29,739 bases of DNA from a virus. Its lineage: Duplodnaviria > Heunggongvirae > Uroviricota > Caudoviricetes. This document shows, one piece after another, positions 3,383 through 5,850 of the stretch. Position 1 is the first letter of the stretch. Each line of letters opens with the position of its first letter. Under the pieces are notes generated by a model, which was not told where the DNA came from, made no database searches, and worked only from the letters and a program-made list of their open reading frames with translations. The stretch covers positions 1-29,739 of IMG/VR virus record IMGVR_UViG_2531839666_000033. One strand, given 5' to 3'. A program made the translations under genes and the position numbers.

Positions 3383-3876
3383 ATGAACCGGGCACTGTGT
3401 GGCGTGATTATTGTCCTGCTGGTGGCCTGTGGTGCGCTGTGGCTGGCAACAGACCATTACCGCGATAATGCCATCACCTACAAAGCGCAGCGCGATAAAA
3501 AGCCAGCGAGCTGGAGCTGGCAAACGCAACCATTACTGACATGCAGCAGCGCCAGCGTGATGTTGCTGCGCTGGATGAAAAATACACAAAGGAATTAGCC
3601 GATGCGAGAGCTGAAAATGAAACTCTGCGCGCTGATGTTGCCGCTGGTCGTAAGCGCCTGCGGATCAACGCCACCTGCTCCGGTACCGTGCGTGAATCCA
3701 CCGGCACCGCCCGCGTGGATAATGCAACCGGCCCCCGACTGGCAGACACCGCTGAACGGGATTATTTCATCCTCAGAGAACGGTTGATGACAATGCAGAA
3801 GCAGCTGGAAGGGGCGCAGGAATATATCCGCACTCAGTGCACTAAGCTGGCTTTTTATTATCCGGAGGATACATGA
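3383..3876 (+). pseudogene. Rz: i-spanin Rz, reading frame disrupted by a 1-nt deletion in an A-run (A5 at 3497-3501)
   Basis: N-terminal ORF 3383..3598 (MNRALCGVIIVLLVACGALWLATDHYRDNAITYKAQRDKK) and ORF 3541..3876 (…QQRQRDVAALDEKYTKELADARAENETLRADVAAGRKRLRI…) together match lambda Rz; the frames join if one A is added at gataaaaag. Confidence 0.8.
3602..3787 (+). CDS. Rz1: o-spanin Rz1 lipoprotein, embedded in the +1 frame of Rz
   Basis: MRELKMKLCALMLPLVVSACGSTPPAPVPCVNPPAPPAWIMQPAPDWQTPLNGIISSSENG: lipobox VVSAC, proline-rich, resembles lambda Rz1. Confidence 0.8.
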   Translation: MRELKMKLCALMLPLVVSACGSTPPAPVPCVNPPAPPAWIMQPAPDWQTPLNGIISSSENG

Positions 3877-4097
3877 AGAAATTACTGGTAACCGTAAAGC
3901 CTTTTCAGGGAACAATTCCGTTCCGTATTTTGCAGCGTGGTCGTGTTCTTGTTGAAGGTTCGTTCAGTGGTAAATGTACGCAATTACACTCCCGGACCTT
4001 TCAGGTGAATGCCACGAATGAAGAGCTAACCGTTGAGTGTACGATGAATGCCGCTAAATGCCGCATGGTATCGGCTGCATTACAGCCAGTGTGTTGA
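3873..4097 (+). CDS. hypothetical protein (74 aa), translationally coupled to the Rz stop
   Basis: GGAGG RBS 5 nt upstream of ATG 3873; ATGA overlap with the Rz stop; not Bor-like. Confidence 0.45.
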   Translation: MKKLLVTVKPFQGTIPFRILQRGRVLVEGSFSGKCTQLHSRTFQVNATNEELTVECTMNAAKCRMVSAALQPVC

Positions 4098-4454
4098 GCG
4101 ACCTTATTATCCATGGCGCGGTATTGTCGCCGTATTCCCGCATTAACAGAGACCGCAGCCCGACAGGGAGACTCCTCTGCGCGAGTGTGTGGGGATAATC
4201 AAAAACGATACACACCGGGGTTTACCGCGTTAACGGAGCGCGGCGTTGTCCCCTCATGGTCGCTGGTCCGGTGCGATGGTGGAAGAAACCGGATATTTAC
4301 GATGTTTACCTGAGAATACGGGAAAGGATTCGTTGAGTTTCAGCACATTTTTGTATTCAGATAATTGAATATCAGTTTATTTTACTTTTAACATATTGAT
4401 AATAAAAAGGACTGTAATACCAGAGATAAGTTGAGTGTGTTCGGGGAACGACAA

Positions 4455-4592
4455 ATGGGTTTAATGCTGACGATTGCTGGTGTGATTGTATTATTTATTG
4501 CCTGTAATGCAGATAAATACGGTTACCCTCTGTTATCACGCATTGGCGCTTATTGTGCGCTGATACTGATCTTCTCGTCGCTTTTTTTTTGA
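4455..4592 (+). CDS. small hydrophobic peptide (45 aa), putative
   Basis: MGLMLTIAGVIVLFIACNADKYGYPLLSRIGAYCALILIFSSLFF; AT-rich codons; GGGGA 7 nt upstream. Overlaps a convergent minus-strand ORF (4536..4727), so at most one of the two is real. Confidence 0.25.
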   Translation: MGLMLTIAGVIVLFIACNADKYGYPLLSRIGAYCALILIFSSLFF

Positions 4593-4733
4593 GTGAGTTA
4601 TCTTCGTCATAAGAAATAATCTATTAGTTTTTTTGTAAAAACCACAGTCAGAGGGCGCATCCGTGCTGTCGGGGGATAGAATGACAAACCTCATGTATCG
4701 GGTATCAGCGTTTGTCTTTAAAGGCAATTTTAC

Positions 4734-4919
4734 TTAACTCTGTTTGTTATTCGCGTCAGAAGTCTCAGCCGCAAGTCTTCTTCTGCAGGCTTCAATGACC
4801 CATGCTGAAAAGTTACCGGACCCTTTATGCTCAAGGGCGCTGTTGATCTGTTCAATCATGTGATTGGGGAAACGGATATTGCGGGTTGTTGTTCTGCGGG
4901 TTCTGTTCTTTGATGACAT
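4734..4919 (-). CDS. ribbon-helix-helix DNA-binding protein (Arc/Mnt/CopG-like), putative repressor or antitoxin
   Basis: 61 aa; segment RNIRFPNHMIEQINSALEHKGSGNFSAWVIEACRRRL fits the RHH beta-strand, helix A, helix B pattern of P22 Arc; divergent from the packaging genes, with an AT-rich upstream region at 4920-5060. Confidence 0.55.
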   Translation of the reverse strand: MSSKNRTRRTTTRNIRFPNHMIEQINSALEHKGSGNFSAWVIEACRRRLAAETSDANNKQS

Positions 4920-5115
4920 AATGTTGCCCCATATTCAGTGTTGCTGATTTGTATTATCTGAAGTTACTTTTACGTTAATTTGATGCAGATCAATTAATAC
5001 GATACCTGCGTCATAATTGATTATTTGACGTGGTTTGATGGCGTACACGCACGTTGTGACATGTAGATGATAATTATTATTTTGTGGGTCCTTTCCGGCG
5101 ATCCGACCGGTTACG

Positions 5116-5127
5116 GGGCGGCGACCT
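5116..5127 (+). other. cos: cosN cohesive-end site (12-nt GGGCGGCGACCT) of a lambda-type cos; cosB extends toward nu1
   Basis: ttacgGGGCGGCGACCTcgcgcgttttcactatttatgaaaattttc closely matches the lambda cos sequence and lies about 175 bp upstream of the terminase small subunit gene. Confidence 0.8.
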
Positions 5128-5301
5128 CGCGCGTTTTCACTATTTATGAAAATTTTCTGGGGAAAATCATGTCGGTACTGATTATATGTAATGTATTGTT
5201 TTTAAACGGTACGTAAGAAAAAAGGACCGTCACAGGTGCGTGGAAGAAAGGCATTTTCAGGCCGTTTTGTGTCGTAACTGATTTTTGAATGAGGTTGTTG
5301 T

Positions 5302-5850
5302 ATGAATGTTAACAAAAAGAACCTTGCGGAAATGTTTAATGTTGATCCGCGTACAATTGAACGCTGGCAAACTCAGGGGCTCCCTCAGATATCTGGTGGA
5401 GGAAAAGGTATTGAGATCATTTTTGATTCTGCGAAGGCGATCGAATGGTATGCGCAGCGTGAAGCCGATATTGAAAACGAAAAACTCCGTAAAGAGGTCG
5501 AAGATTTGAGAGCTGCCAGCGAGACTGACCTTCAGCCTGGTACCATTGATTACGAACGTTACCGACTGACGAAGGCACAGGCAGATGCACAGGAACTGAA
5601 AAATGCCCGCGACAGTGGGCAGGTGATTGATACTGGTTTTTGTATGTATGCACTGGCGCGTCTTGCGCAGGACATTTCCGGTATTCTTGACAGTATTCCA
5701 CTGTATATGCAGAGACAATTCCCTGAATTTCCCCCTTCCGCCCTTGAGTTTTTGAAATCGGAGATAGCAAAAGCATCTAACAAGTGTGCGGATACTGCAG
5801 ATGGGTTACCAGATATGCTTGCAGACTACATTAGAGAGTCAAATTCATAA
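5302..5850 (+). CDS. nu1: terminase small subunit (lambda Nu1-like)
   Basis: 182 aa; [12 protein letters not shown]…[74 protein letters not shown] closely matches lambda Nu1; GAGG RBS. Confidence 0.95.

What the first reader, a model, noticed from the sequence alone, without database searches (positions are those of the whole stretch)
4300..5115. Divergent Arc/Mnt-like RHH gene and small hydrophobic ORF in the AT-rich region just upstream of cos
A 61-aa minus-strand protein has a clear ribbon-helix-helix pattern (RNIRFP beta-strand, then two helices) and its own AT-rich upstream region (4920-5060) next to cos. A 45-aa double-hydrophobic-segment ORF on the plus strand (4455-4592) converges on it and overlaps an alternative minus ORF (4536-4727). 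RHH proteins are typical repressors or type II antitoxins, so this could be a small regulatory or toxin-antitoxin-like moron; no recognisable toxin partner was seen.
Basis: partly seen in the sequence, partly recalled or inferred. Interest (0 to 1): 0.45.

Follow-up and report, generated by a model that had tools for sequence, protein, structure and literature searches.

The report
Small DUF3950 (YlcI/YnfO) gene beside cos
The 61-residue gene next to the phage's DNA-packaging site is an ordinary but uncharacterised family member (DUF3950, YlcI/YnfO) that 77% of E. coli genomes and phage lambda itself also carry, it probably folds as a ribbon-helix-helix DNA-binding protein, and it is not half of a toxin-antitoxin pair with the nearby 45-residue membrane ORF.

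Summary

The 61-aa minus-strand ORF (4734-4919) is a real gene of the DUF3950 / YlcI-YnfO family (Pfam E 2.8e-19).
- An identical protein is already annotated in RefSeq.
- The core is found in 4184 of 5426 complete E. coli genomes.
- Phage lambda has an unannotated homologue at 48109-48303c.
- Selection is strongly purifying (dN/dS about 0.07, synonymous sites near saturation).

A ribbon-helix-helix fold is likely but not proven. The AlphaFold monomer is strand-helix-helix, and about 45 of the top 50 PDB fold matches are RHH proteins, though all are individually non-significant. Alignments to Arc, Mnt and CopG fall in the right register. No profile search gave a significant RHH hit.

The toxin-antitoxin idea is not supported, because no co-directional partner is conserved. 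The 45-aa two-segment hydrophobic ORF is probably real, but it lies on the late strand and occurs in only 14% of genomes.

In phage satellites, DUF3950 genes sit behind arrays of palindromes, which fits a DNA-binding regulator. The conserved spacer, including a Fur box, travels with lambda-type cos rather than with the gene.

The function is untested. This is an ordinary member of a known orphan family.

The parts
4734..4919 (-). DUF3950 / YlcI-YnfO family gene, 61 aa: MSSKNRTRRTTTRNIRFPNHMIEQINSALEHKGSGNFSAWVIEACRRRLAAETSDANNKQS
   Evidence: ORF. Pfam PF13132 E 2.8e-19. NCBIfam NF041551. phrog_949 E 4e-32. Identical product annotated in E. coli SHP24 as WP_001371679.1. dN/dS 0.07.
4764..4919 (-). 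Conserved core, residues 1-52. Basic N-terminal arm, putative beta-strand R13-N-I-R-F-P18, helix 19-32, turn G33-S-G-N-F-S38, helix 37-56.
   Evidence: AlphaFold2 model. Family alignment with invariant I15, R16, V41 and near-invariant F17, I25, F37, W40, A44, C45. Core found in 4184 of 5426 E. coli genomes.
4734..4763 (-). Variable C-terminal tail (residues 53-61) and stop codon. A mosaic boundary falls here.
   Evidence: Tails of 22 phage alleles differ in sequence and length (53-99 aa) while residues 1-50 are almost identical. Homology to lambda ends here.
4455..4592 (+). 45-aa ORF with two hydrophobic segments (an alternative TTG start at 4431 would give 53 aa). It lies on the late strand and converges on the DUF3950 gene with a 141-nt gap.
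   Evidence: PGAP 'hypothetical protein' WP_000523825.1. No family in Pfam, NCBIfam, PHROGs or PADLOC.
4536..4727 (-). Alternative 63-aa minus ORF (TTG start, 6 nt after the DUF3950 stop). Judged not to be a gene.
   Evidence: No family hit. Not conserved in the O157 or PPyecE relatives. The region carries indels between relatives.
4920..5085 (.). AT-rich (34% GC) non-coding block between the DUF3950 start codon and cosQ. It is far more conserved than synonymous sites of the adjacent gene.
   Evidence: Window vs lambda: divergence 0.11 against core pS 0.51. Window vs L189: 0.12 against 0.79. Identity is 82-100% to lambda while Nu1 is 50-65%. The block is absent from HNH-type phages that carry the same gene.
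4975..4998 (.). Invariant palindrome TTAATTTGAT-GCAG-ATCAATTAAT. A third related box, ATAATTGAT, lies at 5013-5021.
   Evidence: Invariant apart from one position (A or C) across all 16 distinct lambda-cos-type spacers, including the most diverged. Coordinates read.
4989..5021 (.). Inverted repeat ATCAATTAATACG-N7-CGTCATAATTGAT (13-nt arms, 85% complementary).
   Evidence: 100% identical in lambda and O157. One compensatory double change in the L186 clade, and the repeat is lost in L140. No stable RNA hairpin (z -1.2 to -1.4).
5063..5084 (.). Fur-box-like palindrome next to cosQ. It is weakened here by a 3-bp deletion (14/19 to GATAATGATAATCATTATC).
   Evidence: lambda 16/19 with 0 of 500 shuffles reaching it; other loci 16-17/19; the window's 14/19 is reached by 114 of 2000 shuffles. 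It corresponds to the K-12 'nohA' and 'nohB' Fur sites, the nohA site gel-shifted by Fur (PMC2189734; position checked). A Fur ChIP-exo peak lies on the same element in CFT073.
5056..5083 (+). Sigma-70-like site GTGACA-16-TATTTT reading towards cos and Nu1. It overlaps the Fur-like box.
   Evidence: This is a consensus match only, and the number of sites found is no higher than in shuffles.
5086..5127 (.). cosQ-like GGGTCCT (5086-5092) and the cosN cohesive-end sequence GGGCGGCGACCT (5116-5127).
   Evidence: Sequence. Alignment to the lambda right end. The cosQ and cosN names come from established lambda knowledge.

Best explanation
The 61-aa gene is a typical member of the DUF3950 / YlcI-YnfO family. 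The same gene lies unannotated at the right end of lambda and is called ylcI and ynfO in the K-12 cryptic prophages.

Shown:
- It is a real coding gene under strong purifying selection.
- It sits in one fixed place, as the last gene before the packaging module, on the strand opposite to late transcription.
- Only its first ~50 residues are conserved.

Inferred:
- The core folds as a ribbon-helix-helix and dimerises through the strand N14-I-R16-F. It would read DNA with N14 and R16 (the same residues as Arc N11 and R13), with help from the basic N-terminal arm and the N-F-S helix cap.
- It would be made at a low level from the uninduced prophage. Head-on late transcription after induction would shut it off.
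- It acts as a small transcriptional regulator, most likely a repressor.

Its DNA target is not identified. The conserved palindromes in 4975-5021 are the only local candidates, but they travel with lambda-type cos rather than with the gene.

The 45-aa ORF is a separate accessory gene on the late strand that probably encodes a two-segment membrane peptide. It is not a partner of DUF3950.
For: Family membership.

Coding and constraint:
- dN/dS is 0.07 at pS 0.5.
- Across six lineages, pS is 0.5-0.8 and pN 0.04-0.08.
- There are 9567 copies in 4184 of 5426 E. coli genomes.
- The lambda homologue is at 48109-48303c.

Fold:
- AlphaFold2 gives an extended N-terminus plus helices 19-32 and 37-56.
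- About 45 of the 50 best Foldseek PDB matches are RHH or RHH-like proteins (NikR, Arc, CopG, ParD, MazE, NikA, HicB, MatP, CdbA, TCP), at rmsd about 2 A over 37-47 residues.
- hhalign places the strand and helix A in register with Arc (E 0.0028), Mnt (0.063) and CopG (0.085). The Arc sequence used was verified against PDB.
- Weak hits to Pfam RHH_6 and to the HicB-like PHROG.

Regulatory role, at family level:
- In nine P4-like or PICI-like satellites, the DUF3950 gene is the lone gene opposed to the main operon.
- Upstream of it lie 2-5 copies of a locus-specific palindrome, at ~23 and ~47 bp spacing in the P4-like loci and 33 bp in L006. Examples are TGGTACGTACCA x2 flanking a TATAAT, TGTGCGCACA x3 and TGTTTAAACA x4.

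Expression of homologues without induction:
- ybcW-ylcI is listed as a convergent excludon seen in at least 50% of K-12 RNA-seq samples (PMC12288877).
- ylcI and ynfO show low counts in W3110 (PMC10164565 supplement).
Against: - No significant sequence or profile match to any RHH family or solved structure.
- All Foldseek E-values are 0.8 or higher.
- The monomer model has a mean pLDDT of only 69, and DSSP assigns no strand.
- No sigma-70-like promoter was found on the minus strand. No terminator was found either.
- Phages with an HNH/HK97-type packaging module carry the same core protein, with identical putative DNA-reading residues. They have no palindrome or repeat upstream. An autoregulatory operator is therefore not demonstrated for the phage-borne genes.
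- There are no functional data on any family member in the searched literature.
- In the satellites, the palindrome arrays could equally be bound by the divergently encoded protein.
Confidence: 0.55

Rival explanations
1. Toxin-antitoxin module. The RHH protein would be a type II antitoxin whose toxin is either the 45-aa hydrophobic peptide or the 63-aa ORF that starts 6 nt after its stop codon. Alternatively, the 45-aa peptide would be a type I-like toxin restrained by the overlapping convergent DUF3950 transcript.
For: - RHH is a common antitoxin DNA-binding fold, and ParD, MazE and HicB are among the fold matches.
- There is a weak hit to the HicB-like PHROG at E 0.024.
- The 45-aa product is small and very hydrophobic.
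- The convergent arrangement lacks a recognisable terminator.
- The K-12 homologue forms a convergent overlapping transcript pair with its neighbour.
Against: - The 63-aa ORF is not conserved even in close relatives and has no homologues.
- The 45-aa ORF is on the opposite strand, so it is not an operon partner.
- The 45-aa ORF is in 734 genomes against 4184 for DUF3950, and in 2 phage records against 155.
- The neighbour 3' of DUF3950 changes from phage to phage.
- The C-terminal tail, where antitoxins bind their toxin, is hypervariable and can be as short as 3 residues.
- There are no PADLOC or TA-family hits.
Confidence: 0.04
2. Packaging-linked DNA-binding factor. The protein would bind DNA at or near the packaging site, either to modulate or protect cos in the prophage, or to take part in phage-satellite conflict over packaging. 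It would not be a conventional gene regulator.
For: - The gene always occupies the last position before the packaging module, in two unrelated terminase systems: lambda Nu1/A with cos, and HNH-TerS-TerL.
- In satellites, DUF3950 is fused to the N-terminal DNA-binding domain of a small terminase subunit (Terminase_2, E 1.6e-11).
- The constraint is strong and ancient, and the gene is very prevalent. Both are unusual for a sporadic moron.
- RHH accessory proteins assist site-specific nicking in conjugation (TraY, NikA). This is established knowledge, and NikA is among the fold matches.
Against: - The gene is antisense to the late operon, so it should be poorly expressed when packaging takes place.
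- The conserved spacer next to cos is retained in CFT073 without the gene, and the gene occurs without that spacer.
- Distant family members lie in chromosomal, non-phage contexts.
- The position could simply be the known moron-rich junction between the lysis genes and cos.
Confidence: 0.12
3. Iron-controlled moron. Transcription of the gene would start near the Fur box beside cosQ, be repressed by Fur-Fe, and rise in iron-starved lysogens.
For: - A Fur-box-like palindrome lies about 150 nt upstream of the start codon in lambda-type phages (16-17/19).
- The equivalent K-12 sites ('nohA', 'nohB') are strong predicted Fur sites. The nohA site was selected in vivo and gel-shifted by Fur (PMC2189734).
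- The nohA site maps 156 bp upstream of ynfO.
- In CFT073, a Fur ChIP-exo peak lies on this element, and both flanking transcription units rise 2-3 log2 in a fur mutant.
- Chromosomal DUF3950 genes follow Fur-controlled yoeA-type TonB receptor genes.
Against: - The box is degraded in this window (14/19, reached by 5.7% of shuffles).
- HNH-type phages with the same gene have no Fur box.
- The leftward genes that respond in CFT073 are not DUF3950.
- No Fur ChIP-exo peak entry naming nohA, nohD, ynfO or ylcI turned up for MG1655 or W3110 in the peak tables searched. ynfO and ylcI counts fall rather than rise in the W3110 fur mutant, at very low counts.
Confidence: 0.1
4. Not a DNA-binding RHH. 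It would be a small helical protein that acts by binding another protein of the host or phage, or a conserved ORF whose real constraint lies elsewhere.
For: - There is no significant RHH profile hit.
- The structural matches are non-significant.
- pLDDT is moderate.
- No operator is shared by the two phage types.
- A near-invariant cysteine (C45) and tryptophan (W40) are not typical RHH features.
Against: - The fold matches are almost exclusively RHH proteins.
- Alignments to three RHH proteins are in register.
- The pattern basic arm, polar/hydrophobic alternation, proline, helix, G-x-x-N-F-S turn, helix fits the fold.
- Palindrome arrays lie upstream of satellite copies.
- dN/dS of 0.07 in this frame shows that the protein itself is the selected object.
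Confidence: 0.12

Closest known systems
YlcI (DLP12) and YnfO (Qin) of E. coli K-12; Pfam PF13132 DUF3950, NCBIfam NF041551, PHROG 949; the unannotated lambda ORF 48109-48303c
   Same: Same family by HMM. Same size. Same position and orientation between the lysis or accessory genes and cos with nohA/nohD/Nu1. The core is 85-92% identical.
   Different: Only the C-terminal tail and the downstream neighbour differ. No member has a known function, so membership names the gene without explaining it.
Phage P22 Arc and Mnt repressors (ribbon-helix-helix, immI region)
   Same: Small phage proteins with a strand-helix-helix layout. The motif N-I-R-F-P matches Arc N-L-R-W-P and Mnt N-F-R-M-P, with Asn and Arg at the base-contacting positions. 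The turn G-x-x-N-F-S matches G-R-S-V-N-S. Arc structures are among the best fold matches.
   Different: There is no significant sequence relationship: the Pfam Arc family is not hit and hhalign probability is 11% or less. There is no ant-type target gene or defined operator. The genomic place differs, being next to cos. A conserved Cys and Trp lie in helix 2.
RHH antitoxins and plasmid regulators (ParD, CopG, MazE9, HicB C-terminal domain)
   Same: Same predicted fold and size class. There is a weak HicB-like PHROG hit.
   Different: There is no adjacent co-transcribed toxin, and the C-terminal tail is hypervariable.
Lambda bor/lom-type morons (genes in the late region expressed from the prophage)
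   Same: A self-standing gene inside the late region on the strand opposite to late transcription, as bor is. Homologues are transcribed in uninduced cryptic prophages.
   Different: It is much more prevalent and more conserved than typical morons. It is predicted to be a DNA-binding protein, not an envelope protein. No recognisable promoter or terminator pair was found.
Fur sites 'nohA' and 'nohB' of E. coli K-12 (Chen et al. 2007, PMC2189734)
   Same: The palindrome beside cosQ (5063-5084) is the same element by position and sequence.
   Different: The copy in this window carries a 3-bp deletion and matches only 14/19. The element belongs to the cos flank and is not specific to the DUF3950 gene.

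Membership tests
DUF3950 / YlcI-YnfO (PF13132, NF041551) | Score above the curated cut-off of the family HMMs | tested here: met
   Pfam 69.2 bits against 25. NCBIfam 38.6 bits against 30. PHROG 949 at E 4e-32.
DUF3950 / YlcI-YnfO (PF13132, NF041551) | Conserved motif K/R-N-I-R-F-P ... N-F-S-A-W-V-x-E/D-A-C | tested here: met
   Alignment of 21 diverse members: I15, R16 and V41 are invariant; F17, I25, F37, W40, A44 and C45 are at least 90% conserved.
DUF3950 / YlcI-YnfO (PF13132, NF041551) | Position as in ylcI and ynfO: opposite strand, between the lysis or accessory genes and cos with the small terminase gene | tested here: met
.
Ribbon-helix-helix superfamily (Arc/MetJ/CopG) | Strand-helix-helix topology in about 45 residues | tested here: inconclusive
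   The AlphaFold2 monomer has an extended segment 1-18 and helices 19-32 and 37-56, at mean pLDDT 69. DSSP assigns no strand in the monomer.
Ribbon-helix-helix superfamily (Arc/MetJ/CopG) | Significant sequence or profile similarity to a recognised RHH family | tested here: not met
   No RHH hit in Pfam for the window protein. One of 21 members hits RHH_6 at E 0.092. There are no RHH chains in the PDB sequence or profile searches. hhalign to Arc gives E 0.0028 at 11% probability, to Mnt 0.063 and to CopG 0.085; all three are in register.
Ribbon-helix-helix superfamily (Arc/MetJ/CopG) | Structural similarity to solved RHH proteins | tested here: inconclusive
Ribbon-helix-helix superfamily (Arc/MetJ/CopG) | Obligate dimer with an antiparallel inter-subunit beta-ribbon | not testable with these tools
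No multimer tool is available.
Ribbon-helix-helix superfamily (Arc/MetJ/CopG) | Sequence-specific DNA binding through the ribbon | not testable with these tools
   The support is indirect only: palindrome arrays lie upstream of satellite-borne family members.
P22 Arc / Mnt family proper (Pfam Arc) | Match to the Arc family HMM, or detectable homology to Arc or Mnt | tested here: not met
   No Arc-family hit. Arc finds Mnt in PDB at E 4e-6, but the DUF3950 profile finds neither.
Type II toxin-antitoxin system | Conserved adjacent co-transcribed toxin gene | tested here: not met
   The only co-directional neighbour (4536-4727) is not conserved. Neighbours vary between phages. No TA or defence HMM hit.
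Type I toxin / small membrane toxin (the 45-aa ORF) | Small hydrophobic peptide whose mRNA is controlled by an antisense RNA | tested here: inconclusive
   Hydrophobic two-segment peptide: met. Antisense control and toxicity cannot be tested here. There is no Rfam match in 3800-5400.
Fur box (for the palindrome 5063-5084) | Match to GATAATGATAATCATTATC together with Fur binding | tested here: inconclusive
   The window matches 14/19, which 5.7% of shuffles reach. Lambda matches 16/19, which 0 of 500 shuffles reach. Fur binding is shown only for the K-12 and CFT073 equivalents.

The most novel reading that the evidence does not exclude
DUF3950 proteins would be a so far unrecognised class of RHH 'quiescence' regulators of enterobacterial mobile elements. 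Each is encoded as a lone gene head-on to the element's main operon: the late operon in lambdoid phages, the replication and packaging operon in P4-like or PICI-like satellites. The regulator would therefore be made only while the element is silent. In satellites it would be the missing protein repressor, binding the GTG-N-CAC palindrome arrays. In lambdoid prophages, and in the satellite fusions to a small-terminase DNA-binding domain, it would act on packaging-site DNA as part of phage-satellite competition for cos.
Probability: 0.1. Interest if true: 0.7.

Novelty: already known. Interest (0 to 1): 0.3.

Why it matters
As it stands, the finding re-identifies a catalogued orphan family, so its direct value is an improved annotation. 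The gene is a probable RHH DNA-binding protein rather than a 'domain of unknown function', and the toxin-antitoxin reading is removed.

It would matter more if the function were established. The gene occurs in about three quarters of complete E. coli genomes, often in several copies. It has been held almost unchanged while its synonymous sites saturated. It is also present but unannotated in the lambda reference genome, right beside cos.

A conserved, lysogen-expressed DNA-binding protein at that position could bear on prophage regulation, on iron-dependent expression near cos, or on phage-satellite conflict. All of these can be tested directly in lambda.

Tried and rejected
RHH fold tests that gave nothing usable:
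- Sequence and profile searches against PDB gave only chance hits such as pAgo and serpin.
- The third word-indexed homologue search listed only close E. coli copies.

RNA and signal searches:
- Rfam found nothing in 3800-5400.
- RNA folding of the inverted repeat, the 5' region and both 3' regions gave no structure better than shuffles. A hairpin or terminator reading of the repeat was therefore dropped.
- The promoter and terminator scan found nothing on the minus strand.

The 13-nt-arm inverted repeat or TTAATTGAT boxes as the DUF3950 operator: weakened. HNH-type phages with the same protein lack them.

Fur control as a general property of DUF3950: rejected as general.
- There is no Fur box in HNH-type or satellite loci.
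- The box persists in CFT073 without the gene.

Long 290-390-aa ORFs antisense to DUF3950 in satellites: judged spurious. They are the open antisense frame joined to a real 61-66-aa gene.

Literature:
- No functional study of YlcI, YnfO or DUF3950 was found.
- Lambda 'orf-64' turned out to be a different gene, between Q and S.
- The lambda ribosome-profiling paper (PMC3718152) is not held.
Full report
**Setting.** The window is the late region of a lambdoid E. coli prophage.
- It carries holin, endolysin and Rz/Rz1 genes, then a 1-kb accessory stretch.
- cos follows: cosQ-like GGGTCCT at 5086-5092 and the cohesive-end sequence GGGCGGCGACCT at 5116-5127.
- Then come Nu1 (5302-5850, Pfam Phage_Nu1 E 8.9e-78) and the large terminase subunit.
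- Two prophages of E. coli SHP24 carry copies of the finding's region. One is 95% identical overall, and the other matches at 100% over the two segments compared.

**Observation.**
- The 61-aa ATG ORF is at 4734..4919 on the minus strand.
- The plus-strand hydrophobic ORF has its ATG at 4455 and its stop at 4592.
- The alternative minus ORF is at 4536..4727.
- The spacer has 34% GC.

**What the 61-aa ORF is.**
- It belongs to Pfam DUF3950 (E 2.8e-19, 69 bits against a cut-off of 25), NCBIfam 'YlcI/YnfO family protein' and PHROG 949, which has no known function.
- PGAP annotates the identical protein in SHP24.
- The K-12 members are ylcI in DLP12 and ynfO in Qin. ynfO lies 388 bp from nohA, divergently, exactly as here.
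- Phage lambda has a 64-aa homologue at 48109-48303 on the complementary strand that the RefSeq record does not annotate.
- The 156-nt core is found in 4184 of 5426 complete E. coli genomes, 9567 copies in all, up to 12 per genome.
- Against 1.84 billion cluster representatives only 98 proteins match, so the family is small.
- A scan of one genome per species places it in Enterobacterales plus one Pasteurellaceae isolate.

**It is a gene under strong selection.**
- Against lambda and an O157 prophage copy, dN/dS is 0.07 with pS about 0.5.
- Across six lineages, pS reaches 0.5-0.8, which is saturation, while pN stays at 0.04-0.08.
- Conservation stops at about residue 50. Among 22 distinct alleles from viral contigs, the tail varies freely in sequence and length (53-99 aa), and homology to lambda ends there.

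**Is it a ribbon-helix-helix protein?**
- Sequence-based tests failed to reach significance. There is no RHH family in Pfam for this protein, and no RHH chain in three PDB sequence or profile searches.
- The structure-based and pattern evidence points one way.
- The AlphaFold2 monomer (21-sequence alignment, pLDDT 69) has an extended N-terminal part and helices 19-32 and 37-56.
- Of its 50 best Foldseek matches in the PDB, about 45 are RHH or RHH-like proteins: NikR, Arc, CopG, ParD, MazE, NikA, HicB, MatP, CdbA and the TCP domain. They superpose at about 2 A over 37-47 residues, but every E-value is 0.8 or worse.
- hhalign of the family profile against Arc (sequence verified in PDB), Mnt and CopG puts the strand and helix A in the correct register each time. 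The values are E 0.0028, 0.063 and 0.085, with probabilities of 11% or less.
- N14-I-R16-F-P aligns with Arc N11-L-R13-W-P, the base-contacting Asn and Arg of Arc by established knowledge.
- Weak hits to Pfam RHH_6 (one member) and to a HicB-like PHROG agree.
- A dimer could not be modelled.
- I rate the RHH fold at about 80-85%.

**The neighbours and the toxin-antitoxin idea.**
- The 45-aa ORF is probably a real gene. It keeps its frame at 71% amino-acid identity and 82% DNA identity in O157-type copies.
- Its dN/dS is 0.31 in its own frame against 0.55-1.7 in the other frames, and only its frame is free of stops.
- PGAP annotates it in every listed copy.
- It has two 16-residue hydrophobic segments around a conserved polar loop.
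- It lies on the late strand, convergent with DUF3950, and has no family assignment.
- It occurs in 734 genomes and 2 phage records, against 4184 and 155 for DUF3950.
- In lambda and K-12 the convergent neighbour is instead lambdap79/ybcW.
- The 63-aa minus ORF that begins 6 nt after the DUF3950 stop would be the textbook position for a toxin. It has no homologues and is reduced to 25 aa in the O157 relative.
- There is therefore no conserved partner, and the toxin-antitoxin reading is not supported.

**The spacer between the gene and cos.**
- The 166-bp AT-rich block is much better conserved than the synonymous sites next to it. Window against lambda gives 0.11 divergence against pS 0.51, and another pair gives 0.12 against 0.79.
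- It is 82-100% identical to lambda, while Nu1 is 50-65% and the cosB region 38-50% identical.
- It contains a near-invariant palindrome, TTAATTTGAT-GCAG-ATCAATTAAT (4975-4998), and the 13-nt-arm inverted repeat the tool reported (4989-5021). The repeat shows one compensatory double change but is lost in the most diverged type.
- Beside cosQ lies a Fur-box-like palindrome (5063-5084).
- None of these forms a convincing RNA structure.
- The block belongs to lambda-type cos, not to the gene. Of 78 viral loci with the gene, 42 have an HNH endonuclease gene starting 41 bp upstream instead. Those have no such palindromes, no repeats and no Fur box.
- Conversely, a CFT073 prophage keeps the Fur box beside cosQ but has other genes in place of DUF3950.

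**The Fur box is a known element.**
- In lambda it matches the consensus 16/19, a score that 0 of 500 shuffles reach. Other loci match 16-17/19.
- This window has a 3-bp deletion and matches 14/19, which 5.7% of shuffles reach.
- Chen et al. 2007 list the corresponding K-12 sites as 'nohA' (22.3 bits, -233) and 'nohB' (25.3 bits, -133). The nohA fragment had been selected in vivo and was gel-shifted by Fur. By coordinates it lies 156 bp upstream of ynfO.
- In CFT073, a Fur ChIP-exo peak lies on the element, and genes on both sides rise 2-3 log2 in a fur mutant.
- In W3110, ynfO and ylcI counts are very low and fall in the fur mutant.
- Iron control of this particular gene is therefore possible but unsupported.

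**Family-level clue to function.**
- Two cluster representatives fuse DUF3950 to the N-terminal DNA-binding domain of a small terminase subunit (Terminase_2, E 1.6e-11).
- They lie in small islands with an integrase and a primase. One of these islands also carries its own small terminase and a capsid-like gene and is embedded in a lambdoid prophage, as described for helper-embedded satellites.
- In these and in seven further P4-like or PICI-like satellites, the DUF3950 gene is the lone gene opposed to the main operon. The hosts are Klebsiella, Enterobacter, Serratia, Xenorhabdus, Proteus and Pectobacterium.
- Within about 130 nt upstream lie 2-5 copies of a locus-specific palindrome. In the P4-like loci they are spaced about 23 and 47 bp apart; in the embedded satellite two copies of TGGTACGTACCA lie 33 bp apart and bracket a TATAAT. 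Other examples are TGTGCGCACA x3, TGTTTAAACA x4 and GGTGCGGCCACAC x3.
- That is the look of an operator array, and it fits an RHH repressor. The divergently encoded protein could be the binder instead.
- Other distant members sit just downstream of TonB-dependent receptor genes or in chromosomal islands.

**Most likely mechanism.** The 61-aa protein is a small dimeric RHH DNA-binding regulator. It is made at a low level from the silent prophage and is switched off by head-on late transcription. Its target is still unknown. My confidence is 0.55.
- Shown: gene identity, constraint, position and orientation.
- Inferred: fold, dimerisation, DNA binding and timing of expression.
- Homologues are transcribed in uninduced K-12. 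ybcW-ylcI is listed as a convergent overlapping pair in at least half of RNA-seq samples.
- Nothing is known for this prophage itself.
- The rivals are a packaging-linked role (0.12), iron control (0.10), a non-RHH protein-binding role (0.12) and toxin-antitoxin (0.04).

**Verdict.** This is an ordinary member of a catalogued but uncharacterised family. The RHH guess was good, the toxin-antitoxin pairing is wrong, and the 'own upstream region' is really a cos-linked conserved block. Interest is modest. It rests on how widespread and constrained the gene is, and on its presence, unannotated, next to cos in lambda.

Noticed in passing
window 3383-3876: The Rz (i-spanin) gene appears frameshifted. 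The N-terminal 40 codons are in one frame (ORF 3383..3598) and the rest in another (3541..3876). SHP24 has an intact 155-aa gene. The embedded Rz1 lipoprotein frame (MKLCALMLPLVVSACGS...) is intact. This is either a pseudogene or a sequencing error.
   Followed up: partly
window 5063-5084; lambda 48447-48465; L221 2190-2212: A Fur-box-like palindrome lies directly beside cosQ in lambda-type cos phages. It is the 'nohA' and 'nohB' Fur site of K-12, the nohA site gel-shifted by Fur. In CFT073 a Fur ChIP-exo peak lies on it and both flanking transcription units are derepressed in a fur mutant. Iron-dependent transcription next to cos seems not to be part of the lambda textbook picture.
   Followed up: partly
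window 4920-5085: The non-coding block left of cosQ is far more conserved than synonymous sites of the adjacent gene and than Nu1 or cosB. It includes a near-invariant palindrome at 4975-4998. No function is known to me, and it lies outside the cosQ-cosN-cosB segment as usually defined.
   Followed up: partly
L004 2210-2404 (lambda NC_001416 48109-48303, complementary strand): The lambda reference record does not annotate its DUF3950 homologue (64 aa), although several other lambda-like records do. The genome-wide CRISPRi essentiality study of lambda therefore did not list or target it.
   Followed up: yes
L006 5400-6420; L005 4590-5103; L266, L273, L275, L279, L280, L292, L293 around 1300-1700: Phage satellites (P4-like or PICI-like, one of them embedded in a prophage terS gene) carry one or two DUF3950 genes head-on to their main operon. 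Arrays of GTG-N-CAC-type palindromes lie upstream. Some are fused to a small-terminase N-terminal DNA-binding domain. These are candidates for an unrecognised satellite regulator.
   Followed up: partly
L225-L252 and others; 3.4-3.56-kb 'ena' contigs: About 35 species-representative assemblies of unrelated taxa hold the lambda DUF3950 gene on ~3.5-kb or ~48.4-kb contigs. The taxa include Streptomyces, Cohnella, Pedobacter, Flavobacterium and an Arcanobacterium 'plasmid' of 3566 bp. The sizes fit lambda control DNA (a 3.6-kb nanopore control fragment from the right end of lambda, or whole-lambda spike-in) contaminating the assemblies. The same contamination would explain protein entries named YlcI/YnfO in Staphylococcus and Klebsiella.
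   Followed up: partly
L015/L016 5001-5225; L017-L019 5001-5192; L014 5001-5180: Distant chromosomal DUF3950 genes lie directly downstream of TonB-dependent receptor genes next to DUF2946, CopC and CopD (the yoeA-type locus, the strongest Fur cluster in K-12), or downstream of cytochrome bd genes. This hints at a metal-related context for part of the family.
   Followed up: no
window 5056-5083 (+): A sigma-70-like site, GTGACA-16-TATTTT, overlaps the Fur-like box and points across cos towards Nu1. It could give Q-independent transcription of the terminase genes from the prophage.
   Followed up: no
window 5141-5850 vs lambda: This phage shares cosQ and cosN with lambda at 82-93% identity. Its cosB region (38-50%) and Nu1 (50-65%) are much more diverged, the pattern expected for a different packaging specificity on a common nicking site.
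   Followed up: partly
window 3873-4097 (+): The 74-aa ORF after Rz matches only positions 100-172 of the 291-position PHROG 2571 profile (E 2.8e-28). It looks like a fragment of a longer protein, though PGAP annotates it as a hypothetical protein in SHP24.
   Followed up: no
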